NCBI GenBank assembly: GCA_963805975.1 | Contig: CAWDVR010000003.1 | Span: 800,001-864,000, forward strand | From: an uncultured Acidobacteriota bacterium | GTDB taxonomy: Bacteria; Acidobacteriota; Thermoanaerobaculia; Multivoradales; SZUA-115 | Length of the DNA: 64,000 nucleotides | Direction of reading: 5' to 3' | Shown here: positions 19,177-33,343 of the stretch, piece after piece | How positions within the stretch are numbered: position 1 is the first letter of the stretch | Layout: each line of letters starts with the position of its first letter | The notes under the pieces: generated by a model | Databases searched by the model: none | Seen by the model: only the letters and a program-made list of their open reading frames with translations | What the model was told of the DNA's origin: nothing | Position numbers and translations under genes: made by a program

Positions 19177-20799
19177 GTGAGCTGGAAGCCCCCGGTCTAC
19201 CCTCCGCGCGCCCTGGTCTCCCCCCTGCGCGCGCTGGTCCGGCGGCTGCGCCGCGCCACGGCCTCGATCTCGATCCGCCTGGCGGCCTTCAACCTGCTGC
19301 TGGTGTTCCTGCCTGCCGCCGGCTTCCTCTATCTCGACACCTACGAGGAGCGGCTGCTGGCGGCACAGGAGCGCTCGATGGTGCAGCAGGGCAGAATCCT
19401 GGCTGCGGCGCTCTCCGGCCGCGCGGCGCTCGACTCCATCGAAGCCGCGCGCGTGCTGGTCGAGCTCGGCCAGCGCACCACCTCGCGGCTGCGGGTCTTC
19501 GACGCCGGCGGCACGGTGATCGCCGACTCGAGCCTCCTCGGGCCGCGGCGCGAGCCGGACGAGGAGCCGAGCGATGCGCCGACCGTGCGTGCCAACTGGC
19601 TCTACCGGGTGGGGGCGGGGGTCTTCGTGCTCGCCAACCGCCTGCTGGGGCGGGACGATCCGGAGGCGGAGCGCAGCCTGGACGCAGTACCCGCGTCACC
19701 GCCGGCAGACTACGGAGTGGAGGCGGCGCTCGCCGGACGCTACGGCGCCGTCACCCGCAAGTCCCCGGGCCAGCGCTCGGTGACGCTCTACAGCGCCATT
19801 CCGATCGCGAGCGGCGAGCAGGTGGTGGGCGCGGTGCAGGTCTCGCAGTCCACGCTCCGCCTGCTGCGCGACCTCTACGAAGTGCGCCTCGCCGTCTTCC
19901 AGGCCTTCCTGGTCTCGGTGCTGGTGGCGATCGTGCTCTCGGTCTTCGTCTCCGGCACCATCGCCCGGCCGCTCAAGCGGCTGCGGCGCGAGGCGAGCGA
20001 GCTGCTCGACCGGCGCGGGCGCCTCAAGGGCCGCTTCACCGGCTCGAAGCGGCTCGACGAGATCGGCGACCTGGCGCGCACGCTGGCCGAGCTCTCGCGC
20101 CGGCTGGGCGAGCATCTCTCGTTCACCGAGTCCTTCGCCGCCGACGTCTCGCACGAGTTCAAGAACCCGCTGGCTTCGATCCGCACCGCTACCGAGATGC
20201 TCTCCGAGAGCGAGTCGCCGGAGGACCGGCGGCGGTTCCAGTTGATGGTCGAAGCCGAGGTGGCGCGGCTCCAGAAGCTCCTCTCGACGGTGCGCGAGAT
20301 CACCCAGATCGACTCGCAGATCGACGCCGAGGCGCCGGTGGGAGTGGCCCTGCCGCGGCTGCTCACCGATCTCGTGGACAGCTTCCGCCTGCGGGCGGGC
20401 AAGCGCAGCGTGCGCTTCCTGCTCGACACGCCGCCCGACCCGCTCACCGTGCTCGGCTCGCCCGACCGCCTGGCCCAGGCCTTCGAGAACGTGCTCGACA
20501 ACGCCTTCTCCTTCGCGTCCGAGGGCTCGATCGTGTGGGTGAGCCTGGGCCAGGAGACCGGCGAGGCCGTGCTCCGCGTCGCGGACCAGGGGCCGGGCAT
20601 CCCGCCCGAGCACCTGGCGCGGATCTTCGACCGCTTCTTCAGCTACCGGCCCCACGACTTGGTGGCCCGCCGCGACCACGCCGGCCTGGGCCTCGCCATC
20701 GTCAAGGCGATCGTCGAGGGCTACGGCGGCACCGTCACCGCCGCCAACGGCACCGCCGGCGGCGCCGTGATCACCATCCGCCTGCCGCTGGCGGGGTAG
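19177..20799 (+). CDS. Sensor histidine kinase (ChvG/CreC-like)
   Basis: Two TM segments, HAMP (DEIGDL), H-box HEFKNPL, ENVLDNA, DQGPGI, GLGL. Confidence 0.93.
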   Translation: MSWKPPVYPPRALVSPLRALVRRLRRATASISIRLAAFNLLLVFLPAAGFLYLDTYEERLLAAQERSMVQQGRILAAALSGRAALDSIEAARVLVELGQRTTSRLRVFDAGGTVIADSSLLGPRREPDEEPSDAPTVRANWLYRVGAGVFVLANRLLGRDDPEAERSLDAVPASPPADYGVEAALAGRYGAVTRKSPGQRSVTLYSAIPIASGEQVVGAVQVSQSTLRLLRDLYEVRLAVFQAFLVSVLVAIVLSVFVSGTIARPLKRLRREASELLDRRGRLKGRFTGSKRLDEIGDLARTLAELSRRLGEHLSFTESFAADVSHEFKNPLASIRTATEMLSESESPEDRRRFQLMVEAEVARLQKLLSTVREITQIDSQIDAEAPVGVALPRLLTDLVDSFRLRAGKRSVRFLLDTPPDPLTVLGSPDRLAQAFENVLDNAFSFASEGSIVWVSLGQETGEAVLRVADQGPGIPPEHLARIFDRFFSYRPHDLVARRDHAGLGLAIVKAIVEGYGGTVTAANGTAGGAVITIRLPLAG

Positions 20800-20825
20800 G
20801 GTGCGGGCGGCACTGCTGATCCACC

Positions 20826-21614
20826 ATGGAGCCCTGCATGAGCACATCCAGAGCGCACCGATCTCGTGTCTGCATCGCGATGGTCCTCGCCATCGTGTCC
20901 CTGACCCTCTCTCCAGCCAGCAGGGCCGCTAGCAAGAAGAAAGAACGACTCAGTGCCCGGGTGAGCGAGTCGGTGCAGGATCACCTGCAGCGCATCGAAG
21001 CGCACCTCGCCGAGGAGGAGTGGCCGGACGCGCTGAGCAGCAGCAAAGTCCTGCTGCGGGACTTCTCCGCCAAGGTCACGGGCGGCGAAGCTGCCGGGCC
21101 CCTGCTCGGCATGGCGCTGCTCTTGCGAGCGGTCGCCGAGTCCGGGCTCGGACGGACCGAGGCCGCGTTGTGGGATTGGCACTCTGCCGTAACCCTGTTC
21201 CCGGGGTTGCTCACCGCGGACCTGGCGAAGTACGGAGCCGCCGGGAAGCTGCTCGAAGAGAACAAGCCCATCCCCCGGGATCCATCGCCAATCCCGGGCG
21301 TGGAGACGCCGGCAGGGTCCTCATACCCGGACGAGGTCACTCCCCCGAAAATGCTCCACGCCAGACCGCCGGCCTACCCGAAGGGCCTGCTGCTTTCGTG
21401 CGGCGAAGGCCGGGTGGTGATCGGAAGCGTGATCGATGAGCAGGGACGGCCTACGAAGCCCGTGATCCTGGAAGCGCCGGGTGGTCCGGTAGCTGCCTAC
21501 GCCGCTCTCGAAGCCCTACAAGGTTGGCGCTTCAGGCCGGCCAGCCTCGCAGGAAAGCCAGTGGCCGTCTACTACACGCTGACCGTGAGCTTCTCGATAC
21601 CCGATTGCGGGTAG
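20826..21614 (+). CDS. TonB C-terminal domain protein with helical N-terminal region
   Basis: Signal/anchor, PPAYP..GRV..VIDEQG..AALEALQGWRFRPA..GKPV; start may be 20838. Confidence 0.8.
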   Translation: MEPCMSTSRAHRSRVCIAMVLAIVSLTLSPASRAASKKKERLSARVSESVQDHLQRIEAHLAEEEWPDALSSSKVLLRDFSAKVTGGEAAGPLLGMALLLRAVAESGLGRTEAALWDWHSAVTLFPGLLTADLAKYGAAGKLLEENKPIPRDPSPIPGVETPAGSSYPDEVTPPKMLHARPPAYPKGLLLSCGEGRVVIGSVIDEQGRPTKPVILEAPGGPVAAYAALEALQGWRFRPASLAGKPVAVYYTLTVSFSIPDCG

Positions 21615-21836
21615 GAGATCGCCACGGACCTGCGCACTGACGCTGGGCGAGTCGCTTTCCGCCCGACCGGTGGCGGCTTCGATGGCCTATTGCGAGGCGG
21701 CCTCGTGGCGGCGCACTCTGCGCACCAGCGCCGGCTCAGCTGCGATAGAGTGGCAGGCGCATCCAGCAGAGGAATGAATGCGGGAAGGGTCATGACAGGC
21801 CCTTCCCATTCCCAGGGAAGGATCAGGAGGAAGACT

Positions 21837-22250
21837 ATGCGCAAGGCAATCGTCGTTTTCGCCCTCGCCCTCGCCGTGCTCGGCGTTTCGATGGCGCGCG
21901 CCCAGGGCCCCACCACCCAGCCCGGGCTGTTCTTCACCATCGTGAACCAGTGCCCGTCGCCGGTCCGGGGCTTCGCCGTGGGCGACACGCTGTGCCTGCT
22001 CAAGATCAACACGGCGACTTTCACCCGGGCGATCTTCCAGGGCGACATGGTGGCCGGCGAGAAGAAGTCCGCCATGGCCTGCACGGGCGCCGACGGCCAG
22101 GCCGTGGTGCTGTTCGTACCCTCGGTCTCGATGCCGGTGCAGGCGGTCAAGGTGAACGTCAAGCCCGGTCAGGCAGTGCCCATCCCCAGCACTTTCTGTG
22201 GCAAGGCGGTGGGCGACGAGGCTCCGGGCAGCCAGTTCAAGACTGAATAG
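21837..22250 (+). CDS. Small secreted hypothetical protein (4 Cys, beta-rich)
   Basis: RBS AGGAGG; signal peptide MRKAIVVFALALAVLGVSMARA; GC3-biased codons. Confidence 0.72.
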   Translation: MRKAIVVFALALAVLGVSMARAQGPTTQPGLFFTIVNQCPSPVRGFAVGDTLCLLKINTATFTRAIFQGDMVAGEKKSAMACTGADGQAVVLFVPSVSMPVQAVKVNVKPGQAVPIPSTFCGKAVGDEAPGSQFKTE

Positions 22251-23646
22251 CGGGTGCCTCCCGGAACTCGAGCCGGCGCCAGTCGAGGCGCCGGGTGAGG
22301 AACATCACCAGGCCGAGGATCGCGAAGAGGCCGATCGCGCCCATCAGCAGCGCGTAGTCCTCGGCCTGGAGCAGCAGGTAGAGGTAGCCGTAGAGTGTCG
22401 CCAGGCAGGCGAGAAGCAGCCCGGCCCAGCTGGCGCTGCGCAGCAGGCTCTTCGCGTAGCCGGCGATCAATCCTGAGCAGCCTGCCGCGGCCAGCGCGTA
22501 GGCCAGGCCGAAGCCCAGGTGCTCCGAGAGCGCGAGCAGCAGCAGGTAGAAGAGCACCAGCGCGAAGCCCACCAGCAGGTAGTGCATGGCGTAGAGACGC
22601 ACCGGGCTCACCAGCTCGATCAGGAAGAAGGTGAGTGTGGTGAGGAGTATGAAGAGCAGCGCGTACTTCACCGAGCGCTCGGTCTTCTGGTAGTCGTCCG
22701 CCGGCAGAAAGAGGCTCACCCCGAACGACGCGGCGCTGAGCTGGAAGGAGTTCACCTGCTCCCCGGCCCACTGCTGTGGCACCCCGCGGGCGAGGAAAGG
22801 AATCTTCCAGGTGGCCTCGAAGCCTTGCTCGGTGATCCGGTGCGAAGCCGGCAGGAAGGCGCCGCCGAAGCTGGGGGAGGCCCACGGCGAGGTCAGCGCG
22901 ACGCTCGTCTCCTCGCCGGCGGGGAAGAAGTGCAGGTCCCCCGAGCCGCGCAGCACCAGCTCGAAGGAGAACGGGACGAGGCCCTCGGCCCCGGCGCCCG
23001 CTAAGGCCGTGGGGGCGAGCGCGAGCGGCGCGTGCAGGCCGACCGGCAGGAGCTGGGTCTGCGTGGTGCCCGGCAGGAAGGGGTGGGGCTTCCCGGCCCA
23101 GGAGAGGACGGCGCGTTCCTGCAACCCTCGCACCTCGCTCAAGCCCACCACCAGCCGCGCCTGGTTCCACAGCACCTCGTCGTCCGGCTTGATCCCCAGG
23201 GCCGCGAGATCCGGCGCCGCGAACGTGCCTTCGACCGTGAGCCGTGTCTGGTACACCACCGCCTCGAAGATGCCGCGCTTCCTGATCTCGGGCTCGATCG
23301 TGCCTCGCCAGGCGATGGTCCGCGGCAGGAAGTAGCCGGTCCACGGCACGATCACCGGCTCGGGCAGCTCGCGACGGTCCTTGGCGGCGGCCTTCAGATC
23401 CTCCTCCGTGGGCTTGATGACCTCGCGGTAGGGAAGGACGAGGATCGGCCCGGTGAGAGCCTGCGCTCCTCCCCACACGCCGGCTACCTCGTCGGCCACT
23501 TCCGTTTTGCGCTGCGCGCGTTCGCGAATTAGGCCGGTGACCTGGGCCACCGGGATCAGCAGGGCCAGCACCACCAGCCCCAGCACCGCCAGCTTGATCG
23601 GCGTCGACTCGGTCCAGCGGCGGGGGACTTCGTGTGGAGTTTCCAT
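22237..23646 (-). CDS. creD: Cell envelope integrity inner membrane protein CreD
   Basis: W.SPSF.GAFLP, DYQKTERSVKYALLF, HYLLVG.ALVLFYLLLLALSEH, EDYALL.G, TRRLDW. Confidence 0.94.
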   Translation of the reverse strand: METPHEVPRRWTESTPIKLAVLGLVVLALLIPVAQVTGLIRERAQRKTEVADEVAGVWGGAQALTGPILVLPYREVIKPTEEDLKAAAKDRRELPEPVIVPWTGYFLPRTIAWRGTIEPEIRKRGIFEAVVYQTRLTVEGTFAAPDLAALGIKPDDEVLWNQARLVVGLSEVRGLQERAVLSWAGKPHPFLPGTTQTQLLPVGLHAPLALAPTALAGAGAEGLVPFSFELVLRGSGDLHFFPAGEETSVALTSPWASPSFGGAFLPASHRITEQGFEATWKIPFLARGVPQQWAGEQVNSFQLSAASFGVSLFLPADDYQKTERSVKYALLFILLTTLTFFLIELVSPVRLYAMHYLLVGFALVLFYLLLLALSEHLGFGLAYALAAAGCSGLIAGYAKSLLRSASWAGLLLACLATLYGYLYLLLQAEDYALLMGAIGLFAILGLVMFLTRRLDWRRLEFREAPAIQS

Positions 23647-23720
23647 GTCATTCCTCCTGGGAAGGGATCTCGATGGCGAGATTCCAAGCCGCTGCCGTGG
23701 CACGGATGCGGCGAGGATGA

Positions 23721-25010: not shown

Positions 25011-25041
25011 CATCCGCCTGAGCCGTGCTACTCTGCCGCCG

Positions 25042-25305
25042 ATGCGCCGTCCGACCGCTTACGTCCTCCTTGCGCTGATTGCCGTGCTCCTCGCCGGCGC
25101 CGCGTGGGACGACTGTGAGGCCGACGAGGGTGGCTGCCCGCCGGGCTGCCATCTCGCCTGCGCCGACGGCTGCGGCGTCGCGCCCTCGCTCGAGCTGCCG
25201 GCGCCGCGCGTGACGCTGGTGCCGCTCGAAGCCGTCGGTCTCTCGGCCGACCTGCTCCCCGCCTCGTCCGCTCCCCGCCCCGAGATCGGCCCTCCGCGAG
25301 CCTAG
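25042..25305 (+). CDS. Small Cys-rich leader protein upstream of the metal efflux operon (DUF2946-like)
   Basis: Signal-like N-terminus, CPPGCHLACADGC, C-terminal EIGPPRA; extended -10 TGcTACTCT 7 nt before the ATG. Confidence 0.68.
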   Translation: MRRPTAYVLLALIAVLLAGAAWDDCEADEGGCPPGCHLACADGCGVAPSLELPAPRVTLVPLEAVGLSADLLPASSAPRPEIGPPRA

Positions 25306-25367
25306 AGAAGCGTCGTTCCGCCGACCGGCAGGTGCCGGCCGGCAACGCTTTTCTAGGCTTCAGGAGG
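25291..25367 (+). promoter_or_regulatory. Stem-loop that can sequester the Shine-Dalgarno of the TolC-family gene
   Basis: CCTCC(25291-95)/GGAGG(25363-67); AGCCTAGAGAAGCGT(25299-313)/ACGCTTTTCTAGGCT(25345-59); inner stem 25320-25343. Confidence 0.68.
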
Positions 25368-25372
25368 AGTGA

Positions 25373-26578
25373 ATGCACGCCCTTGCAGTGCTGGCGCTCG
25401 TCGTTGCGCTGGCGGCGGAGCTGCCGCCGGCCGTGACACTTTCCGATCTTCTGGCTCGCGCCCGGCCCTCGCCCGAGCTGTTGCAGGCCGAGGCGCGCAT
25501 CGCCGAGCTGGAGCGCGCGCTCGCCGAGACCGCCGGGCGGCTGCGCGAGGGGCCGACGGTCGCCTTGGCGGCCGGCCCGCGCCGCGCCGAGGGCTCGACC
25601 GAGCCGGACCTCGGCCTCGATCTCGAGCTGCCGCTCTTTTCCGGCGGCGGCACGAGGGAGAGGCTCGCGAGCCTGCTCCAGGCATCCTCCGCGGCCTGGC
25701 GGGCGGAGGCTCGGGCCCTCGCCGAGGCGCGCCTGCGATCGGCGTACCTCGCCGCGTGGGCTGCCGAGCGACGCCTTGCCCTGCGCCGCGACGAGCTGGC
25801 CACCGCGGAGCGCCTGCTCGGTGTGGCGCGGCGGCGGGTGGAGGCCGGCGCGGAGCCGCCCTACCAGTCCGTGCTCGCCGCGGCGGATCACGCCGTGGCC
25901 GGGATGGCGGTGGCCGAAGCCGAGGGCGAGCGCGCCCGTGCCTGGGCCGAGATCGCGGTGCTGGCGGAGCCGGGTACGGAAGGAGCGTTGGCCGACCCGG
26001 AACCGGACCGAGACGGGGCGAGGCCAGTGCCTTCGGACTCTGCAGGGCTCGATGCGACGGGGCTCCGCGAGCGGCTCGCGGCCGGCGCGCTCCGTGCCGC
26101 TGCCGTGGCGCGCGGGGAAGTGGCCGAAGCGCTGGCCCGCCTCGGCGCCGCCCGCGACGACTCGCGATGGAGCCTCGCCTCCGGCGTGGCACGCGAGGCG
26201 GACGAGCGCGTGGCGCGGGTCGGCGTCGCCTACCGCTTCGCGCGGCGCGGAGAGCGCGAGGCTCTCGTCCGCGCCACCGAGGCGGCGGCCCACGCCGCGC
26301 GCCGGGAGGCCGAGGTGGAGTCCGCCGGTCTCGCCGCCAGGCTCGACGCGGCCCTCGGCCGGCGCCGCGCCCTCGCGGCGTCACCGGCTCCGGTCGCGAC
26401 CGAGCCGGCGCTCGCCGCGCTCGAGCTGCGCCTCACCGAAGGCAAGTCCTCGCTCTCCGAAGTGCTGCTCCTCCGGCGCCAGCTCGTGGCCGCACGCGAG
26501 GCCACGCTCGACCGCCGCCTCGCGCTCCATCAGGTGGACGCCGAGATCCTTCTCCTGACTGCCGAGGTGACGCCATGA
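25373..26578 (+). CDS. TolC/CzcC-like outer membrane efflux protein
   Basis: Ala-rich coiled coils, LELPLF, ARRRVEAG, EGKSSLSEVL; first gene of an RND operon. Confidence 0.8.
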   Translation: MHALAVLALVVALAAELPPAVTLSDLLARARPSPELLQAEARIAELERALAETAGRLREGPTVALAAGPRRAEGSTEPDLGLDLELPLFSGGGTRERLASLLQASSAAWRAEARALAEARLRSAYLAAWAAERRLALRRDELATAERLLGVARRRVEAGAEPPYQSVLAAADHAVAGMAVAEAEGERARAWAEIAVLAEPGTEGALADPEPDRDGARPVPSDSAGLDATGLRERLAAGALRAAAVARGEVAEALARLGAARDDSRWSLASGVAREADERVARVGVAYRFARRGEREALVRATEAAAHAARREAEVESAGLAARLDAALGRRRALAASPAPVATEPALAALELRLTEGKSSLSEVLLLRRQLVAAREATLDRRLALHQVDAEILLLTAEVTP

Positions 26579-27738
26579 GGTTCTGCCGCGCTCTGCTCCC
26601 CTGGTTCTCGATCGTCGTCCTCGCCGCGGCCTGCGGCCGTGGGGCCTCCGATCCTGCGGAAGACGAGCACGCAGCGGCCGCCCACGAGCACGAGGAATCG
26701 GGCCACCAGGACTCACCCGGCGAGCACGGGACGCCGGGCCGGCTGCCCCTCGCCGGCGTGCGCGGCGTCTCGTTCGAGACCGTGGGCCAGCCGCAGCAGG
26801 AGTGGGTGTGGTACGCGGCCGAAGCGCTCGCCGAGGAAGGGGCCGTGGCCTCGCTCGCGGCGCCGGTGTCCGGCGTGATCGTCGCCCTGCACGCCTCCCC
26901 CGGCGAGCGGGTGGCGGCCGGCGCGCCGATCGTCGCCCTGCGCAGCCCGGAGGTCGCCGACCTCAAGGCCGTCTGGCTTTCGGCAGAGGCGCGCCGCGTG
27001 CGGGCCGAGAAGGAGGTCGAGCGGGAGAGGCGCCTCTACGCGGGACAGGCAACGTCCCAGCGCGACCTGGAGTCCGCCGAGGCCGATGCCGCGGTGGCGG
27101 CGGCCGACGAGGAGGCGGCGCGCCTGGCGCTCTCCGCGCGCGGGCTGTCGGTCCGGGAGGCCGGGGCGAGTGTCACCGTGCGCGCGCTGCGCGCCGGCAC
27201 CGTCGCCGCCCTGCCGGTGCGGCTCGGCCAGAACGTGGCGGCCGGCGAAGCGCTCGGAGAGCTGCTCACCGGGGCGGCGCGCCTGGCGCGGGTCGAGCTG
27301 CCGCTCCCGGCTCCCGAGGCGTGGGAAGCGGGAGCCGCCAGCGAGGTGCGGCGCTCGGACGGGCGCCGCTGGCCGGCCCGCGTGGAAGGCGTGCCGGCCG
27401 CGCTGACCAGCGACACCCGGCGCCTGGCCTACCGCCTGCGCCTGGAAGGTGACGACCTCCCGGTGCCCGGCACGCCGCTCGAGGCGCGCGTGCCGCTGGC
27501 GCGAGGGCTGGTGCTGCCGCAGACCGCCTTGCAGCAGATCGAAGGCGCCTGGGGCGTCTTCGTGCGCGACGGCGAAGAGGCCTCCTTCCGGCCGGTGCAG
27601 AAGGGAGCGGAGCTCGGCGGCGACGTGCTGGTGCTCGCGGGTTTGGAGCCTGGCGAGACCGTGGCCACGGACGGCGCCTACCTGCTCAAGGCCCTGCACC
27701 TGAAGCTCGCGGGCGGAGGGGGCGGCCATGACCACTGA
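26575..27738 (+). CDS. RND efflux periplasmic adaptor (CzcB/CusB-like lipoprotein)
   Basis: Lipobox LAAAC, His-rich N-terminus, lipoyl-like APVSG..GERV, GLEPGETVATDGAYLLK, terminal HDH. Confidence 0.9.
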   Translation: MRFCRALLPWFSIVVLAAACGRGASDPAEDEHAAAAHEHEESGHQDSPGEHGTPGRLPLAGVRGVSFETVGQPQQEWVWYAAEALAEEGAVASLAAPVSGVIVALHASPGERVAAGAPIVALRSPEVADLKAVWLSAEARRVRAEKEVERERRLYAGQATSQRDLESAEADAAVAAADEEAARLALSARGLSVREAGASVTVRALRAGTVAALPVRLGQNVAAGEALGELLTGAARLARVELPLPAPEAWEAGAASEVRRSDGRRWPARVEGVPAALTSDTRRLAYRLRLEGDDLPVPGTPLEARVPLARGLVLPQTALQQIEGAWGVFVRDGEEASFRPVQKGAELGGDVLVLAGLEPGETVATDGAYLLKALHLKLAGGGGGHDH

Positions 27739-30700
27739 GACCCATCGCGGCCTGAGGCGGTGGTTCGAGGGAGTGCTCCGCCACAAGGGATGGAGCGTGG
27801 CCCTCTCCCTCCTGCTGGGGGTCGCGGGAGGGCTCACCTTCTCGAGCCTGCGCCGGGACCTGTTCCCGGACCTGGCCCTGCCCACCATCCAGTTGCTGAT
27901 GCAGAGCCCCGGCCGCGCGCCCTCGGAGCTGGAGCTCGCCGTGGCCCAGCCCGTCGAGCAGGCGCTCAACGGCCTGCCCGGCGTACGGCGGGTCACCAGC
28001 ACCATCCAGGCCGGCGTGGTGCAGGTGATCGTCGCCTTCGAGAGCGGCGTCGATCCCTGGCGTTCGCGCCAGCTCGTGGCGGAGAAGCTCTCCGGCGTCG
28101 TGGGCGGCTTCCCCGAGGGCACCTCGGCGCCCCTGATGACCTCGGCCGCCGGGCGCCTGCAGGAGATCCAGGAGCTGGTGCTGCAGGGGCCGGTGGTGGA
28201 CCCGATGAAGCTGCGCGACCACGCGGTCAAGGTGCTCGTGCCGCGGCTGCAGTCGGTGCCCGGGGTGGCACGCATCGAGCTCCTGGGCGGCGAAGGGCGC
28301 CAGCTCCAGGTCTCGATCTCGCCCGAGCGCATGCGCCTCGCCGGGGTCTCCCTGGAGCAGATCATCGAAGCCCTCGAGGGCAGCGAGAAGGACTCTTCGG
28401 CAGGCGTTCTCGAGATCCGGGACAAGCAGTGGTACGTCACCGTCGGCACTCTGACCGAGACCCCCGAGGCGGCGCGGCGGCTCCCGGTCCACACGGCGCG
28501 CGGCCTGGTGGCGCTGGGGGACCTGGCCGAGGTGCGGGAGGCGCCCGAGTTCCGGCAGGGGCTCGCTCGCTACCAAGGGTTCGAGGCGGTGTCGATGCGG
28601 GTCATCAAGCAGCCCACGGCGGAGACCCTGGCGACGGCGGAGCGGGTGCGCCTGGCCTTGCCCGATCTGCGCAAGACCCTGCCGGAAGGCATGTCGCTCG
28701 ACCTCTTCTACGACCAGGGGCGCCTGGTCGAGCACGCCCTGGGCGGCGTGACGCAGGCGCTCCTGGTGGGCGCGATCTTCGTGGCGCTGGTGCTGGTGGT
28801 TCTGCTGGGCAGCCTGCGGGGCGCGCTGATCGTGCTCGTGGTGCTGCCCCTTGCCACGCTCGGCGCGGCGCTGCCGCTCAAGGCGCTCGGCCTGGGGCTC
28901 AACGCCATGACGCTCGGCGGGCTCGCCATCGCCGTGGGCCTGCTGGTGGATGCCGGGGTGATCATGGTGGAGAACCTTGTTCACCGGCTGCACGTTCTCG
29001 GGCCGGGCGCAACCCGATCCGCGGTCCTCGCTCGCGCGGCGGCGGAGGTGGCGGTGCCGATCGCCACTGCCGTGCTGGTGATCCTGGCGGTCTTCATTCC
29101 ACTGCTGGCCCTCGGCGGCGTGGCCGGGCGGCTCTATGCGCCGCTTTCCGTCTCCGTGGCGTCGGCGATGGCGATCTCGCTCGTCCTCTCGTTCACCCTG
29201 GTGCCGGTGCTGGTGGATCGGTTCCTGCCGCCGGGCACGCGGCTCGACGAGCCGCGCCTGGTGCGGGGGATCAAGAAGCTCTATCGGCCGGTGCTCGACC
29301 TGGTGCTGCGCCACGGGCTGGCGGCCCAGCTCATCGCCCTGGCCGTGGCGCTGCCCGCCCTCCTGCTGGCCGCTCGCCTGGGCTCGAACTTCCTCCCGGC
29401 GCTGGACGAGGGAGCGCTCATGGCCCAGACGCTCCTCACCTCGGACGCCAGCCTGCCGGCGATCGACGCGGCGAACGGACAGTTCGAGGAAGCGATCGCC
29501 AAGGTCCCCGGGGTCCGCGCCTCCTACCGCCGCACCGGCCGCGGCGAGGTGACGGAAGACCCGATGCCCACCTACCTGTCGGACATTCTCATCGTCCTCG
29601 AAGAGGGCGCGGAGCCGGGCGAGGTGGAACGAGAGCTGGTGGAGATCGGCGAGCACATGCCGTTCGCCGTCGAGCTGACGACGCCGATGAACATGCGCAT
29701 CTCGGAGGGCATCGGCGGCACGCCCGCGGACATCCAGGTCGAGCTCTTCAACCCGGACCTCGACGCGATCGCGCCGCGCATGACCGCCCTTCAAGAACAG
29801 ATCTCCGAGGTACCCGGCGTGGTGAGCGTGACCCCGGACACCGGGGCGTCGCTCCCCCGCTGGCGCCTCATCCCCGACGACGACGCCCTGCGCCTGCTCG
29901 ACGTGCCGCGCCCGGCGCTCCTGCGCACGGTGCAGGCGGCCCTCCAGGGCATCCCGCTCGAGCCGCGCTTCGACGGGCCGCAGCGCATAGAGCGCGCCGT
30001 GCGCTTTCCGAACGACGGCCGGCTCACCGCCGAGTCCATCAAGCGGCTGCCGATCGTGGTCGAGGAGGGGCGCATCGTCGAGGTCGGCCAGGTGTCGCGG
30101 CTGGTGGAAGAGACGATGCCGTCGATGATCCGGCGCAAGAACGGCCAGCGCCGGCTGGGCTTCAACGTCCGGACGGCGGGTGACCTGGGAGGGACGGCGC
30201 GCCGGCTGGAACAGGCGCTGGCCGGCATCGAGCTGCCGCCGGGGACCTCGGTGGCGCTGGCGGGCAAGATCGAGGAGGCGCGAGAGACCCAACGCCGGCT
30301 GCTCGCCGCGAGCGCCGTGGCGCTGGCGCTGGTGGTCTTCCTGCTGTTCCTGGCCCTCGGCCGCGTGCGCGAGGTCCTGGTGGTGGTGGGAACGCTGCCG
30401 CTCGCCTTCGCGGGCGGCCTCTACGCGCTCTGGCTGGCGGGGGAGACCTGGAACGCCAGCTCGATCGTCGGCATCATCGGCCTCTTCGGCGTGGCCGTCC
30501 AGAACAGCCTGGTGCTGATCTCCCAGACCCAGTCGCTGCTGGCCCAAGGTATGCCGTTCCGCGAAGCGCTGCGGGAAGCCTCCCTCGGCCGCGTGCGGCC
30601 CAAGCTGATGACCGCCGGCGCGGCGATCCTCGGCTTGGCCCCCATGCTGCTCGGCTTCGGCGGCTCCGAGCTCGAACGGCCGCTCGCGGTGGTGATGATC

Positions 30701-30790
30701 GGGGGCCTCGTCACCTCGACGCTCTTCACCTTGCTCGTGCTGCCCTCCGTTTACGCGAAGTTTGGCCAGGGGAGCGAGGCCTCGCCATGA
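27728..30790 (+). CDS. CusA/CzcA-family heavy-metal RND permease
   Basis: DLFPDL, NAMTLGGLAIAVGLLVDAGVIMVEN, FLPALDEG, RVRPKLMT, PLAVVMIGGL. Confidence 0.94.
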   Translation: MTTETHRGLRRWFEGVLRHKGWSVALSLLLGVAGGLTFSSLRRDLFPDLALPTIQLLMQSPGRAPSELELAVAQPVEQALNGLPGVRRVTSTIQAGVVQVIVAFESGVDPWRSRQLVAEKLSGVVGGFPEGTSAPLMTSAAGRLQEIQELVLQGPVVDPMKLRDHAVKVLVPRLQSVPGVARIELLGGEGRQLQVSISPERMRLAGVSLEQIIEALEGSEKDSSAGVLEIRDKQWYVTVGTLTETPEAARRLPVHTARGLVALGDLAEVREAPEFRQGLARYQGFEAVSMRVIKQPTAETLATAERVRLALPDLRKTLPEGMSLDLFYDQGRLVEHALGGVTQALLVGAIFVALVLVVLLGSLRGALIVLVVLPLATLGAALPLKALGLGLNAMTLGGLAIAVGLLVDAGVIMVENLVHRLHVLGPGATRSAVLARAAAEVAVPIATAVLVILAVFIPLLALGGVAGRLYAPLSVSVASAMAISLVLSFTLVPVLVDRFLPPGTRLDEPRLVRGIKKLYRPVLDLVLRHGLAAQLIALAVALPALLLAARLGSNFLPALDEGALMAQTLLTSDASLPAIDAANGQFEEAIAKVPGVRASYRRTGRGEVTEDPMPTYLSDILIVLEEGAEPGEVERELVEIGEHMPFAVELTTPMNMRISEGIGGTPADIQVELFNPDLDAIAPRMTALQEQISEVPGVVSVTPDTGASLPRWRLIPDDDALRLLDVPRPALLRTVQAALQGIPLEPRFDGPQRIERAVRFPNDGRLTAESIKRLPIVVEEGRIVEVGQVSRLVEETMPSMIRRKNGQRRLGFNVRTAGDLGGTARRLEQALAGIELPPGTSVALAGKIEEARETQRRLLAASAVALALVVFLLFLALGRVREVLVVVGTLPLAFAGGLYALWLAGETWNASSIVGIIGLFGVAVQNSLVLISQTQSLLAQGMPFREALREASLGRVRPKLMTAGAAILGLAPMLLGFGGSELERPLAVVMIGGLVTSTLFTLLVLPSVYAKFGQGSEASP

Positions 30791-32955
30791 GCGAGCGGCT
30801 GGCGTTCAAGATCCGCGGCATGGACTGCGCGGAGGAGATCGCCATCCTGAAGCGCGAGGTTGGGCCGCTGGTCGGCGGCGACGAGCATCTGGGCTTCGAC
30901 CTGCTCAAGGCGAAGATGACGGTCGCACCGCCGGCCGGCGGGCTCGACCCGCGGGAGATCGTGCGCGCGGTCGAGCGCACCGGGATGGGAGCCCAGGTAT
31001 GGGAGGACGCCGCCGCGCGCCTGGAGCCCGAGCGGTTCTGGCAACGCCGCGGCCGCACCGTGCTCACGGCGGCGAGCGGCGCCGCGGCGCTGGCCGGTTT
31101 CGTCACCCACGCCGCGCTGGCGGGCGGCATCGCCGCGGCGCTGGGCTCCGAAGGCCTGGGCCTTGCCGCCTGGGTGCCGCCCGTGTCACGCGCCCTGTAC
31201 ACGGTGGCGATCCTCACCGGCGCCTGGTTCGTCCTGCCCAAGGCCTGGTTCGCGCTCCGGCGCCTGCGGCCGGACATGAACCTGCTGATGACCCTCGCCG
31301 TGGTCGGCGCCGTCGCCATCGGCGAGTGGTTCGAGGCGGCCACCGTCTCCTTTCTCTTCAGCCTGTCGCTGGCTCTCGAGGCCTGGAGCGTGGCCCGGGC
31401 CCGGCGCGCGGTGGAGGCCCTGCTGGACCTGACGCCCCAGACGGCGCGGGTGCGGCAGCCCGACGGCCACGAGCTGGAGCTGCCGGCGGAAGCGGTGGCC
31501 GTCGGTTCCCGGCTGATCGTCAAGCCCGGCGAGCGCATCCCGCTCGACGGAAGGGTGGTCGCCGGTGCGAGCGCCGTCAACCAGGCGCCGATCACGGGCG
31601 AGAGCCTGCCCGTGGCCAAAGCTCCCGGTGACGAGGTCTTCGCCGGCACCATCAACGGCGACGGCGCCTTGGACCTTACGACCACCCGCGGGGCCGAGGA
31701 CACCACGCTCGCTCACATGATCCGCCTGGTCGACGAGGCGCAGTCGCGCCGCGCACCTTCGGAGCAGTGGGTGGAGCGCTTCGCGCGCGTCTACACCCCC
31801 GCGGTGATGGTCCTTGCCGTGGCGCTGCTGCTGATCCCGCCCCTGGTGCTCGGAGCTGCCTGGAGCGACTGGATCTATCGTGCCCTCGTCCTGCTGGTCA
31901 TCGCCTGTCCCTGTGCGCTGGTGATCTCGACGCCGGTGAGCGTGGTCGCGGCCCTGGCCGCCGCCGCGCGCCACGGCGTGCTGGTCAAGGGCGGTCTGTT
32001 CATCGAGGTGCCGGCCCGGCTCCGCGCCGTGGCGCTCGACAAGACCGGCACCTTGACCCAGGGGCGCCCGGCCGTGGTCGAGGTCGTGCCGCTCGCCGGG
32101 CACGACGAGCGGGAGCTGCTCGAGAGGGCCGCCGCCCTCGAAGCCAGGAGCGAGCACCCTCTGGCCCGCGCCATCCTCGCCTACGCCAGGGAGCGGGGAG
32201 TGGAGATGACGCCGGCGGAGGACTTCCGGATTCTCCAGGGCAAGGGTGCCACCGGCCGCTTCGACGGCCAGGAGTACTGGCTGGGCTCGCACCGCTACCT
32301 GGAGGAGCGGGGGCAGGAGACCGCGGAGGTCCACCAGCGGCTCGAAGCGATGTCCGGGGCCGGCCGCACGGCGGTGGTGGTCGGCACGGCAGGCCACGTC
32401 TGCGGCCTGATCGCGGTGGCCGATGCGGTGCGGCCGGAGGCGGCGAAAGCCGTGGCGGCGCTCAGGGCGGCTGGCATCCGCACCGTCGTCATGCTGACCG
32501 GAGACAATCGGGGCACCGCCGAAGCCATCGGCCGCGAGACCGGCGTCGACGAGGTCGAGGCCGAGCTCCTGCCGGCCGACAAGGTGGCCGCCATCGACCG
32601 CCTGCTGGCGCGCTACGGCCAGGTGGCGATGATCGGCGACGGCGTCAACGACGCGCCGGCGATGGCGCGGGCCACGCTCTCGGTGGCGATGGGCGCGGCC
32701 GGAAGCGACGCCGCCATCGAGACCGCCGACGTCGCCCTGATGTCCGACGACCTCTCGAAGCTCGCCTGGCTCGTCGGTCATTCGCGCCGGGCGGTGGCGA
32801 TCATCCGCCAGAACATCGGCTTTTCGCTGGCGGTCAAGGCGGTCTTCGTCCTGCTGACCTTCGCCGGCCACGCTTCCCTCTGGGCAGCCATCGCGGCCGA
32901 CATGGGTGCCTCGCTCCTGGTGATCGGCAACGGCCTGCGGCTGCTGCGGCGCTGA
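30787..32955 (+). CDS. Heavy-metal translocating P1B-type ATPase (Zn/Cd/Pb, CadA/ZntA-like)
   Basis: GMDCAEE, TGES, CPCALVISTP, DKTGT, SEHPL, GDGVNDAPA, ADMG. Confidence 0.95.
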   Translation: MSERLAFKIRGMDCAEEIAILKREVGPLVGGDEHLGFDLLKAKMTVAPPAGGLDPREIVRAVERTGMGAQVWEDAAARLEPERFWQRRGRTVLTAASGAAALAGFVTHAALAGGIAAALGSEGLGLAAWVPPVSRALYTVAILTGAWFVLPKAWFALRRLRPDMNLLMTLAVVGAVAIGEWFEAATVSFLFSLSLALEAWSVARARRAVEALLDLTPQTARVRQPDGHELELPAEAVAVGSRLIVKPGERIPLDGRVVAGASAVNQAPITGESLPVAKAPGDEVFAGTINGDGALDLTTTRGAEDTTLAHMIRLVDEAQSRRAPSEQWVERFARVYTPAVMVLAVALLLIPPLVLGAAWSDWIYRALVLLVIACPCALVISTPVSVVAALAAAARHGVLVKGGLFIEVPARLRAVALDKTGTLTQGRPAVVEVVPLAGHDERELLERAAALEARSEHPLARAILAYARERGVEMTPAEDFRILQGKGATGRFDGQEYWLGSHRYLEERGQETAEVHQRLEAMSGAGRTAVVVGTAGHVCGLIAVADAVRPEAAKAVAALRAAGIRTVVMLTGDNRGTAEAIGRETGVDEVEAELLPADKVAAIDRLLARYGQVAMIGDGVNDAPAMARATLSVAMGAAGSDAAIETADVALMSDDLSKLAWLVGHSRRAVAIIRQNIGFSLAVKAVFVLLTFAGHASLWAAIAADMGASLLVIGNGLRLLRR

Positions 32956-33070
32956 GCCTTTGTATCTCGGCCAGGCTTGCAGACCATCGCGTGCTCATGC
33001 CAGGATTCTCTCTCCATGAGGAATGCGCATGGGCTCATGCGCTCCTCGTCATTTCGAAAGGAGACTGGTG

Positions 33071-33343
33071 ATGAAGAACCGCGTGCTGATCAGCCTGGTG
33101 TTCGTGGCCGTCCTGATCGCCTCGATCTACGCCGTGCCGGAGCCGGTGCAGGCGCAGTCCGGCTGGGTGTTCTGGGGCTGCTGGTCGCCCTACCCGAGCT
33201 GCTCGTTCGCCTACGACATCTACCGCGATCCCCAGGGCCGCTACTGGCGCTGCGGCAACTGCGGCACCACCACCAACCCCAGCCCCTCGACCTGCAAGCA
33301 GGTGAGCTCCTCGATCGAGAACATTGGATATTGGTGCTCGTAG
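33071..33343 (+). CDS. Small secreted 6-Cys, Trp/Tyr-rich protein
   Basis: RBS AAGGAG; signal peptide ending VQA; strongly GC3-biased codons. Confidence 0.75.
   Translation: MKNRVLISLVFVAVLIASIYAVPEPVQAQSGWVFWGCWSPYPSCSFAYDIYRDPQGRYWRCGNCGTTTNPSPSTCKQVSSSIENIGYWCS

What the first reader, a model, noticed from the sequence alone, without database searches (positions are those of the whole stretch)
25042..25375. Metal-sensing leader whose Pro-Pro codons form the anti-Shine-Dalgarno of an efflux operon
Seen: an 87-aa ORF with a signal-like N-terminus, CEADEGGCPPGCHLACADGC and C-terminal GPPRA. CCTCC from its CCT-CCG codons can pair with the GGAGG SD of the TolC gene, closing a long hairpin whose 15-bp stem covers the leader's stop codon. 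Known: DUF2946 leaders (CruR, CutF) use Cys motifs and Pro-rich C-terminal stalling to control copper genes. Inference: a related stalling switch controls a TolC-MFP-RND plus P1B-ATPase operon that has no adjacent metalloregulator, with a 5-Cys/His site that may sense Zn/Cd.
Basis: partly seen in the sequence, partly recalled or inferred. Interest (0 to 1): 0.72.

Follow-up and report, generated by a model that had tools for sequence, protein, structure and literature searches.

The report
Cysteine leader gating metal-pump translation
A small cysteine-rich gene sits in front of a metal-efflux pump operon, and its last codons are predicted to pair with the pump's ribosome-binding site, so it likely works as a known type of stall-operated metal switch, here in a protein family that has no database name.

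Summary
The 87-aa ORF, the Cys cluster, a 16-bp stem over the stop codon and the CCTCC/GGAGG pairing are present (z -4.4; pair probability about 0.97). A similar leader precedes the TolC gene in 37 of 39 related loci. It has a fixed Cys-to-Pro spacing (38-43 aa) and is apparently leaderless (-10 box in 32 of 35). Its last codons mask the downstream SD more than ordinary gene ends (13/22 lineages versus 16/151) and more than synonymous recodings (17/22). The design is known: CutF-like leaders, whose commonest neighbour is a CusC/CzcC gene. This scan has reported similar leaders on other DNA several times. Corrections: (1) Pro-Pro codons are only one of several anti-SD registers, and about half the relatives end in HVP, not PP; (2) the tail is IGPP, not RAPP/RGPP; (3) there is no DUF2946 match; (4) Zn/Cd sensing is unsupported, because the P1B ATPase is accessory and copper is about as plausible. 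Stalling and metal sensing are inferred, not shown. New here are an unnamed family (305 clusters at 50% identity) with a dominant HVP tail, and predicted leaderless translation.

The parts
25026..25034 (+). Predicted extended -10 promoter (TG-n-TACTCT) ending 7 nt before the leader ATG, implying a leaderless mRNA
   Evidence: TAnnnT lies 5-9 nt before the start in 32 of 35 leaders versus 12 of 1347 other ATG/GTG in the same loci; SD-like words in 2 of 35. No -35/-10 consensus hit. TSS not measured.
25042..25305 (+). Leader ORF, 87 aa, CutF-like; no Pfam or NCBIfam family
   Evidence: Third-codon-position changes are the most frequent class in 10 of 10 same-length leader pairs.
25042..25101 (+). 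Signal-peptide-like N-terminus (MRR, hydrophobic core, possible A-G-A cleavage site)
   Evidence: Hydropathy; AlphaFold helix 3-23 at pLDDT about 90. No SignalP available; cleavage site by eye.
25114..25173 (+). Cys/His cluster C25-x6-C32xxxC36HxxC40xxxC44, putative metal or redox sensor
   Evidence: C36 is invariant, and C32 and C40 are at least 90% conserved, in 35 leaders. The last Cys lies 39 residues before Pro84; relatives 38-43.
25291..25295 (+). Anti-SD CCTCC from the Pro84-Pro85 codons (CCT CCG)
   Evidence: Pair probabilities; synonymous test.
25298..25360 (+). 16-bp stem (25298-25313 with 25345-25360) covering the leader stop codon, capped by an inner hairpin at 25320-25343
   Evidence: Not an intrinsic terminator; no Rfam family at gathering score.
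25362..25367 (+). Shine-Dalgarno AGGAGG of the TolC-like gene
   Evidence: Sequence.
25373..26578 (+). Outer-membrane efflux protein (OEP, PF02321; CusC/CzcC-like)
26575..27738 (+). Membrane-fusion protein (HlyD_3/HlyD_D23) with a His-rich N-terminal stretch
27728..30790 (+). Heavy-metal-type RND permease with a CusA-like TM4 motif (AIAVGLLVDAGVIMVEN)
   Evidence: Best NCBIfam hit TIGR00914 CusA/CzcA, below its cut-off; CusA E 4.5e-104, ZneA E 1.7e-92.
30787..32955 (+). P1B ATPase of the ZntA/CadA type (GMDCAEE, CPC, TM7 Lys, TM8 Asp); accessory, not part of the conserved core
   Evidence: TIGR01512 517 bits against cut-off 313.5; motifs; distribution.

Best explanation
[quoted passage not shown] Steps: (1) an extended -10 promoter is predicted to make a leaderless mRNA that starts at the leader's AUG. 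(2) The signal-like N-terminus would take the nascent chain into Sec. (3) The fixed Cys-to-Pro spacing of about 40 residues would put the Cys cluster at the periplasmic mouth of SecY when the prolines reach the peptidyl-transferase centre. (4) Without metal, the ribosome would finish, the hairpin would re-form and the SD would stay masked. (5) With metal, the dwell time would lengthen, the footprint would cover CCTCC and the 5' arm of the 16-bp stem, and tolC and the overlapping genes behind it would be translated. Shown here: the anatomy, its conservation, the codon bias and the computed SD masking. Inferred from CutF/SecM: export, stalling, metal dependence and direction. The metal is open (Cu, or Zn/Cd/Co).
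For: A leader precedes 37 of 39 distinct TolC loci (35 whole, 2 cut by contig ends). Last-Cys-to-Pro spacing is 38-43 aa in all 35 (two script values of 68 are a cluster-picking artefact, 41 by hand from the printed positions), close to the 45 of CutF and CruR. Masking the leader's end lowers SD opening energy by 1.4 kcal/mol or more in 13 of 22 lineages versus 16 of 151 ordinary gene pairs of this genome (median 3.9 versus 0.0); in this window it falls from 9.6 to 3.2. Native last-10-codon sequences pair with the SD better than synonymous recodings in 17 of 22 lineages (Wilcoxon p 4e-4), while three upstream control windows do not (14/21, 10/21, 11/21). The rare codon CCT is in the terminal PP of 15 of 17 PP-type leaders versus 4 of 35 other PP pairs in leaders and 14% of PP pairs genome-wide. 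CutF-like leaders most often precede OEP genes (PMC9973294 section 11), and CutF works through an SD-shielding stem-loop.
Against: There are no expression, stalling or metal data. The tail is IGPP and lacks the Arg of RAPP/RGPP, which supports robust arrest (PMC12992588 section 8). 9 of 22 lineages (11 of 37 loci) show no masking of 1.4 kcal/mol. Swap tests for partner-specific covariation are weak (13/22, p 0.09; 16/22, p 0.013). CCT matters for masking in only 6 of 17 loci, so slow-codon selection may contribute (PMC8129111). With the footprint fixed on the whole transcript, the SD still costs 4.5-7.8 kcal/mol to open because it re-pairs elsewhere. The background gene pairs come from one genome and are probably less C-rich. 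Lineages are kin, so the p-values overstate.
Confidence: 0.6

Rival explanations
1. Metal-independent translational coupling or secretion/redox monitoring. Every ribosome that crosses the leader's end opens the hairpin briefly, so tolC translation follows leader translation, Sec activity or disulfide state rather than a metal.
For: Opening energies with the P-site at Pro84-Ala87 and at the stop codon are similar (RBS 14-18 versus 15.6 kcal/mol), so geometry cannot separate stalling from run-through. An arrest-defective leader is assumed to disrupt such a stem transiently in PMC10987492. The CutF model itself invokes disulfides.
Against: It does not explain the tight Cys-to-Pro spacing or the consistent link to heavy-metal RND genes with P1B, CDF or multicopper-oxidase neighbours.
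Confidence: 0.17
2. CruR-like transcription control. A stalled ribosome hides a C-rich rut site at the leader's end and sets Rho-dependent termination before tolC, and the SD pairing is secondary.
For: The last 60 nt of the leader are C-rich (C33/G15 here; C>G in 35 of 35). CruR works this way (PMC9426467).
Against: C-richness follows from Pro codons. The region is strongly paired rather than unstructured. The spacer is 67 nt here versus 162 for cruR. Synonymous bias favours SD pairing. Relief of stalling by metal would switch an exporter off.
Confidence: 0.1
3. The product is a small periplasmic metal-binding accessory protein that acts in trans (CzcI-like position). The SD pairing is a by-product of Pro codons in GC-rich DNA, and metal control comes from a MerR/ArsR protein encoded elsewhere.
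For: The genome has 3 MerR_1 and 8 HTH_5 matches. CzcI heads czcCBA without a terminal PP (PMC9973294 discussion). Single-locus recoding p-values are mostly not significant (this window p 0.13).
Against: The 40-residue linker is unconserved and predicted unstructured yet fixed in length. The C-terminal motif and the CCT bias are what a cis-acting stalling leader predicts.
Confidence: 0.1
4. Cysteine-availability attenuator, like the leaderless poly-Cys ORFs of mycobacteria. Ribosomes pause at Cys codons when Cys-tRNA is scarce and so change downstream expression.
For: The ORF is leaderless and Cys-rich; such attenuators are described (10.1101/834739, seen as search listing only).
Against: The Cys codons are not consecutive and lie about 120 nt upstream of the anti-SD. 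Footprints at codons 60-78 do not change SD opening (8.2-9.9 versus 9.0 kcal/mol); the Cys codons themselves lie further upstream and were not modelled.
Confidence: 0.03

Closest known systems
CutF-cutO of Rhodobacter capsulatus and the rule-defined CutF-like proteins (PMC9973294; bioRxiv 10.1101/2025.02.05.636593)
   Same: Small ORF with an export signal, CxxxC, a terminal proline motif, a Cys-to-Pro distance near 45 and an SD-shielding stem-loop. OEP (CusC/CzcC/SilC) genes are the commonest neighbours of CutF-like genes.
   Different: No DUF2946 HMM match. Here the anti-SD lies inside the last codons or across the stop, whereas the papers describe the CutF stem-loop as between cutF and cutO. 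Predicted leaderless mRNA. Five Cys. Many relatives end in HVP, which the published PP filter would often miss.
CruR (Bp2923) of Bordetella pertussis, DUF2946/PF11162 (PMC9426467; arrest shown in PMC12992588)
   Same: Cys motif at a fixed distance from a C-terminal proline motif; first gene of a metal-transport operon.
   Different: CruR has CxxC and RAPP, a TSS 45 bp upstream and a 162-bp spacer, and it acts through Rho to switch an importer off. Here the tail is IGPP, the mRNA is probably leaderless, the spacer is 67 nt, the target is an exporter and the predicted control is SD masking.
SecM-secA and related monitoring arrest peptides (PMC10987492, PMC7897499)
   Same: Exported leader; a stalled ribosome disrupts a stem-loop that sequesters the downstream SD.
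   Different: They monitor Sec/YidC activity and use RAGP/RAPP-type cores. That the secM helix includes the last secM codons is my recollection and comes from no call.
CzcI of Cupriavidus metallidurans czcCBA (as described in PMC9973294)
   Same: Small exported protein heading a heavy-metal TolC-MFP-RND operon.
   Different: CzcI lacks a C-terminal proline motif per that paper; sequence similarity was not tested here.

Membership tests
DUF2946 (PF11162) | Match to the Pfam profile | tested here: not met
   No hit for the leader at E<=1; 0 of 35 leaders at E<=0.1; the PF11162 search of the genome does not list this locus; 0 of 73 distant homologues scanned, of 150 listed.
DUF2946 (PF11162) | CxxC plus C-terminal RAPP | tested here: not met
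   The window leader has CxxxC repeats and IGPP; RAPP/RGPP occurs in 0 of 149 homologue tails.
CutF-like proteins (rule set of PMC9973294) | Under 150 aa, PP within the last 15 residues, CxxxC | tested here: met
   87 aa, PP at 84-85, C32xxxC36 and C40xxxC44.
CutF-like proteins (rule set of PMC9973294) | Same-strand downstream gene within 1000 nt, typically metal homeostasis | tested here: met
   OEP gene 67 nt downstream.
CutF-like proteins (rule set of PMC9973294) | SPI-cleaved Sec signal by SignalP | tested here: inconclusive
   Basic n-region and hydrophobic helix present; SignalP not available.
CutF-like proteins (rule set of PMC9973294) | Reached by the jackhammer searches from CutF clusters | not testable with these tools
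   The cluster logos (Fig. S6) are pictures, and the protein list (File S1) was not among the held files.
CutF mechanism | Stem-loop shields the downstream SD and is opened by a ribosome at the leader's end | tested here: met
   In silico only.
CutF mechanism | Metal-induced stalling that needs the Cys motif, the prolines and export | not testable with these tools
   Needs toeprinting and fusions.
RAPP/RGPP arrest peptides | Arg two residues before the Pro-Pro | tested here: not met
   I82-G83-P84-P85; importance of the Arg from PMC12992588 section 8.
Known cis-regulatory RNA family (Rfam) | Match at gathering score | tested here: not met
   Only a plant miRNA precursor model at 25 bits against a cut-off of 66.

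The most novel reading that the evidence does not exclude
An unnamed family of leaderless, exported Cys-cluster leaders (305 clusters at 50% identity) uses a non-RAPP arrest core, mostly (I/L/F)HVP[KLIR] and sometimes PExxPP[RK], as a metal-gated stall. The same codons that stall the ribosome are under synonymous selection to be the anti-SD, so sensor, timer and RNA switch are written into one 30-nt stretch that replaces a transcriptional metalloregulator for heavy-metal RND pumps.
Probability: 0.3. Interest if true: 0.6.

Novelty: new variant of a known kind. Interest (0 to 1): 0.38.

Why it matters
The design (exported Cys leader, terminal prolines, SD-masking hairpin, metal pump) is published and recurs often in this scan, so the locus alone is not a discovery. 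It would matter in three ways. It extends nascent-peptide metal sensing to an RND exporter operon in Acidobacteriota-type bacteria, where no case was tested in the papers I read. It supplies an HVP tail as a candidate arrest motif outside the RAPP/RGPP and poly-Pro classes. And it gives clean synonymous mutations that separate the RNA switch from the peptide.

Tried and rejected
- Intrinsic terminator: none found. Rfam: nothing at gathering score.
- RNA runs: no RNA holder was listed; this is not evidence either way.
- Paralogues in this genome: only the locus itself matched.
- AlphaFold model: pTM 0.32, with only the N-terminal helix confident, so no fold search was run.
- ESM Atlas: not completed.
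- The DNA alignment of eight leader-end/spacer regions was too poor for column-wise covariation. I used alignment-free tests instead.
- MFE partner maps with 120 nt of leader were noisy, often pairing the SD far upstream; I did not rely on them.
- The synonymous test changed the wrong base (25294) and was redone at 25293.
- Rows dropped before counts: duplicate loci of one genome; loci without the TolC N-terminus (for example L016, L059); L012 (leader end missing); L015 (weak TolC match, no leader found).
- For neighbours, 89 of 135 unassigned ORFs went to Pfam, and none was MerR, ArsR, Fur or CsoR; the other 46 were not scanned.
- Rejected: 'the PP codons are the conserved anti-SD' and 'the P1B ATPase fixes the metal as Zn/Cd'.

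Full report
OBSERVATION. The ORF at 25042-25305 encodes 87 aa with a hydrophobic N-terminus, five Cys and one His between residues 25 and 44, and the end EIGPPRA. The stretch 25270-25390 folds at -60.4 kcal/mol, z -4.44 against 200 shuffles. In the full predicted transcript a 16-bp stem (25298-25313/25345-25360, two G-U) covers the stop codon. CCTCC from the codons CCT-CCG (25291-25295) pairs with GGAGG (25363-25367) at probability 0.71 for the outer pair and 0.96-0.97 for the others. Downstream lie OEP, MFP, RND and P1B-ATPase genes with overlapping ends.

CONSERVATION. The TolC family was found in 15 of 61 relatives, 31 of 300 genomes of the order and 10 of 401 sampled from the class. It was also found in 12 genome contigs and 4 metagenome contigs. 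Most of the titled genome records are Thermoanaerobaculia or other Acidobacteriota. After removing duplicates and loci lacking the TolC N-terminus, 39 loci remained. 35 have a complete upstream leader and 2 have one cut by the contig end. One (L012) has a leader whose end is missing, and one weak match (L015) has none. The leaders look protein-coding: third-position changes are the commonest class in 10 of 10 same-length pairs. Mean column identity is only 29%, yet the distance from the last Cys to the terminal-motif Pro is 38-43 residues in all 35 (L032 and L057 were recomputed by hand as 41). CutF and CruR have about 45 residues between the Cys motif and the proline motif. A profile of the 35 finds 305 clusters at 50% identity. 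Of the 149 best hits up to 210 aa, 117 end in H[VIL]P, 26 in another xPP, 4 in [HR]PP, 2 in neither, and none in RAPP/RGPP. The profile was half HVP-type, so this share is biased. One sampled hit is labelled Deltaproteobacteria, so the family is probably not confined to Acidobacteriota. The genomic context of these distant hits was not seen.

LEADERLESS START. TAnnnT ends 5-9 nt before the leader start in 32 of 35 loci (18 of 21 lineages), 17 of them with the extended TG. This compares with 1 of 37 TolC starts and 12 of 1347 other ATG/GTG. Only 2 of 35 leaders have an SD-like word. The box was used to rank alternative starts, which inflates the count somewhat but cannot create a contrast of this size. 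I infer leaderless mRNAs. CruR, by contrast, has a TSS 45 bp upstream.

IS THE ANTI-SD REAL? Four tests were run on 37 loci in 22 lineages (clustered at 55% TolC identity). (1) Removing the leader's end, as a ribosome four codons before the stop would, lowers SD opening energy by at least 1.4 kcal/mol in 13 of 22 lineages. By class this is 14 of 17 PP-type, 12 of 18 HVP-type and 0 of 2 PxPR loci. The background is 16 of 151 scored ordinary gene pairs of this genome (213 found). In the window the value falls from 9.6 to 3.2. (2) Native last-10-codon sequences pair with the SD better than synonymous recodings in 17 of 22 lineages (p 4e-4), and three control windows show no effect. Single loci are mostly not significant (window p 0.13). 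(3) CCT, 5% of Pro codons in this genome, occurs in the terminal PP of 15 of 17 PP-type leaders (10 of 12 lineages fully) versus 4 of 35 other leader PP pairs. In the window any other third base for Pro84 lowers SD opening to 5.5-6.4. Against this, the native PP codons add 1.4 kcal/mol or more in only 6 of 17 loci, and CCU is a slower codon in E. coli (PMC8129111 passages), so pausing may share the cause. (4) Swapping partners between lineages gives weak support for specific covariation (13/22, p 0.09; 16/22, p 0.013; controls null). The register moves between loci: terminal PP codons (window, L006, L033, L042), an upstream P-P-E or P-P-K (L050, L054, L055), Ala-Ser codons (L039, L040, up to 11 bp), or the stop codon plus CCTC (HVP group). 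In the P-P-E/K trio, an E-to-K change in L055 is matched on the SD side, while L050 breaks that pair. The conserved feature is therefore an anti-SD under the footprint of a ribosome at the leader's end, not Pro-Pro codons as such. The window's 16-bp stem is locus-specific in sequence. All energies are equilibrium predictions on GC-rich RNA, and kin are not independent.

WHICH METAL? The ATPase is ZntA/CadA-type (motif reading from general knowledge of P1B-2 ATPases). It follows the RND directly in only 2 of 20 fetched relative loci, several of which are cut by contig ends; three more distant loci have a P1B gene nearby. The same-genus locus has a multicopper oxidase in that place and two loci have a CDF transporter. 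The RND has a CusA-like TM4 and is closer to CusA than to ZneA among solved structures. The CusA Met in RIDML aligns to Glu here, so the CusA Met site (recalled) is not clearly kept. CxxxC is also CutF's copper motif. The metal is undetermined. No MerR, ArsR, Fur or CsoR family was among 89 of 135 neighbouring ORFs scanned, but such regulators exist elsewhere in this genome.

MECHANISM. The best reading (0.6) is a CutF-type switch: co-translational export, metal-prolonged dwell at the terminal prolines, melting of the anti-SD and stem, and translation of tolC and the coupled genes. The anatomy and the computed masking are shown; export, arrest, metal dependence and direction are inferred. The tail lacks the Arg of RAPP/RGPP, so a weak, EF-P-sensitive pause as in CutF is more likely than a robust arrest. 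The rivals are plain coupling or redox/secretion monitoring (0.17), Rho-dependent control (0.10), a trans-acting accessory protein (0.10) and cysteine attenuation (0.03).

COMPARISON AND NOVELTY. It works like CutF and meets the rule-based CutF-like definition as far as testable, but it is not a DUF2946 member by HMM. CutF-like genes before CusC/CzcC genes are published. Earlier notes of this scan describe the same design, including last codons pairing with the next RBS, in other genomes (unchecked AI notes). I did not find an HVP arrest motif or leaderless CutF-like genes in print in my searches. In one search none of the 15 papers listed, of 59, held the HVP terms. The library omits most subscription papers, and Fig. 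S6 (pictures) and File S1 of PMC9973294 could not be read and may bear on this. Papers seen: PMC9426467, part 2 of 7 and passages; PMC9973294, passages, sections 11, 13 (part 1 of 2) and 25, and the Fig. S6 legend; bioRxiv 2025.02.05.636593, part 1 of 6 and passages; PMC12992588, abstract, sections 8 and 13 and passages; PMC10987492, PMC7897499 and PMC8129111, passages only; 10.1101/834739, listing only.

VERDICT. The feature is real and well supported as a cis-regulatory leader. It is a new variant of a known kind, with interest 0.38.

Noticed in passing
window 33023-33343 (likely start near 33071); L081:3704-4012 and L081:10164-10430: A small secreted-looking protein with several Cys and Trp and no good Pfam match lies 67 nt or more behind the P1B gene. 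Two homologues (34% and 40%) flank a related leader-TolC-MFP-RND operon in another genome, so it may be a metal-related accessory protein.
   Followed up: partly
L012, upstream of the TolC match at 1501: Compared with its close relative L013, the leader's Pro-Pro end, stop codon and most of the spacer are missing between two short repeats, and the leader runs on out of frame over tolC. This is either a natural deletion of the switch or an assembly collapse.
   Followed up: no
L013, L014, L042: His-rich leaders (HxxHA...HEPEGDEHGCSGxFHLCxCHH) ending [FYL]RPPxx head more distant RND operons that look CzcA-type where fetched, with the same 41-42 residue Cys-to-Pro spacing. They may be a divalent-metal subfamily.
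   Followed up: partly
L010 (G027:C159): The leader-TolC unit lies directly behind another RND gene, and the same genome has a second leader-TolC copy (L017), suggesting tandem metal-efflux islands.
   Followed up: no
window 26575-26760: The MFP has a His/Glu-rich stretch (EDEHAAAAHEHEESGHQD) after a lipoprotein-like signal, a possible metal-capture segment.
   Followed up: no
window 18375-23703 (minus strand): A response-regulator/sensor-kinase-like pair (by inspection), a TonB-C-terminal-like protein and a CreD inner-membrane protein lie 1.3-6.7 kb upstream on the opposite strand; probably an envelope-stress unit unrelated to the operon.
   Followed up: no
L073:5308-8214; G439:C15: The RND gene of L073 and the TolC gene of G439 appear in two pieces; these could be frameshifts or sequencing errors.
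   Followed up: no
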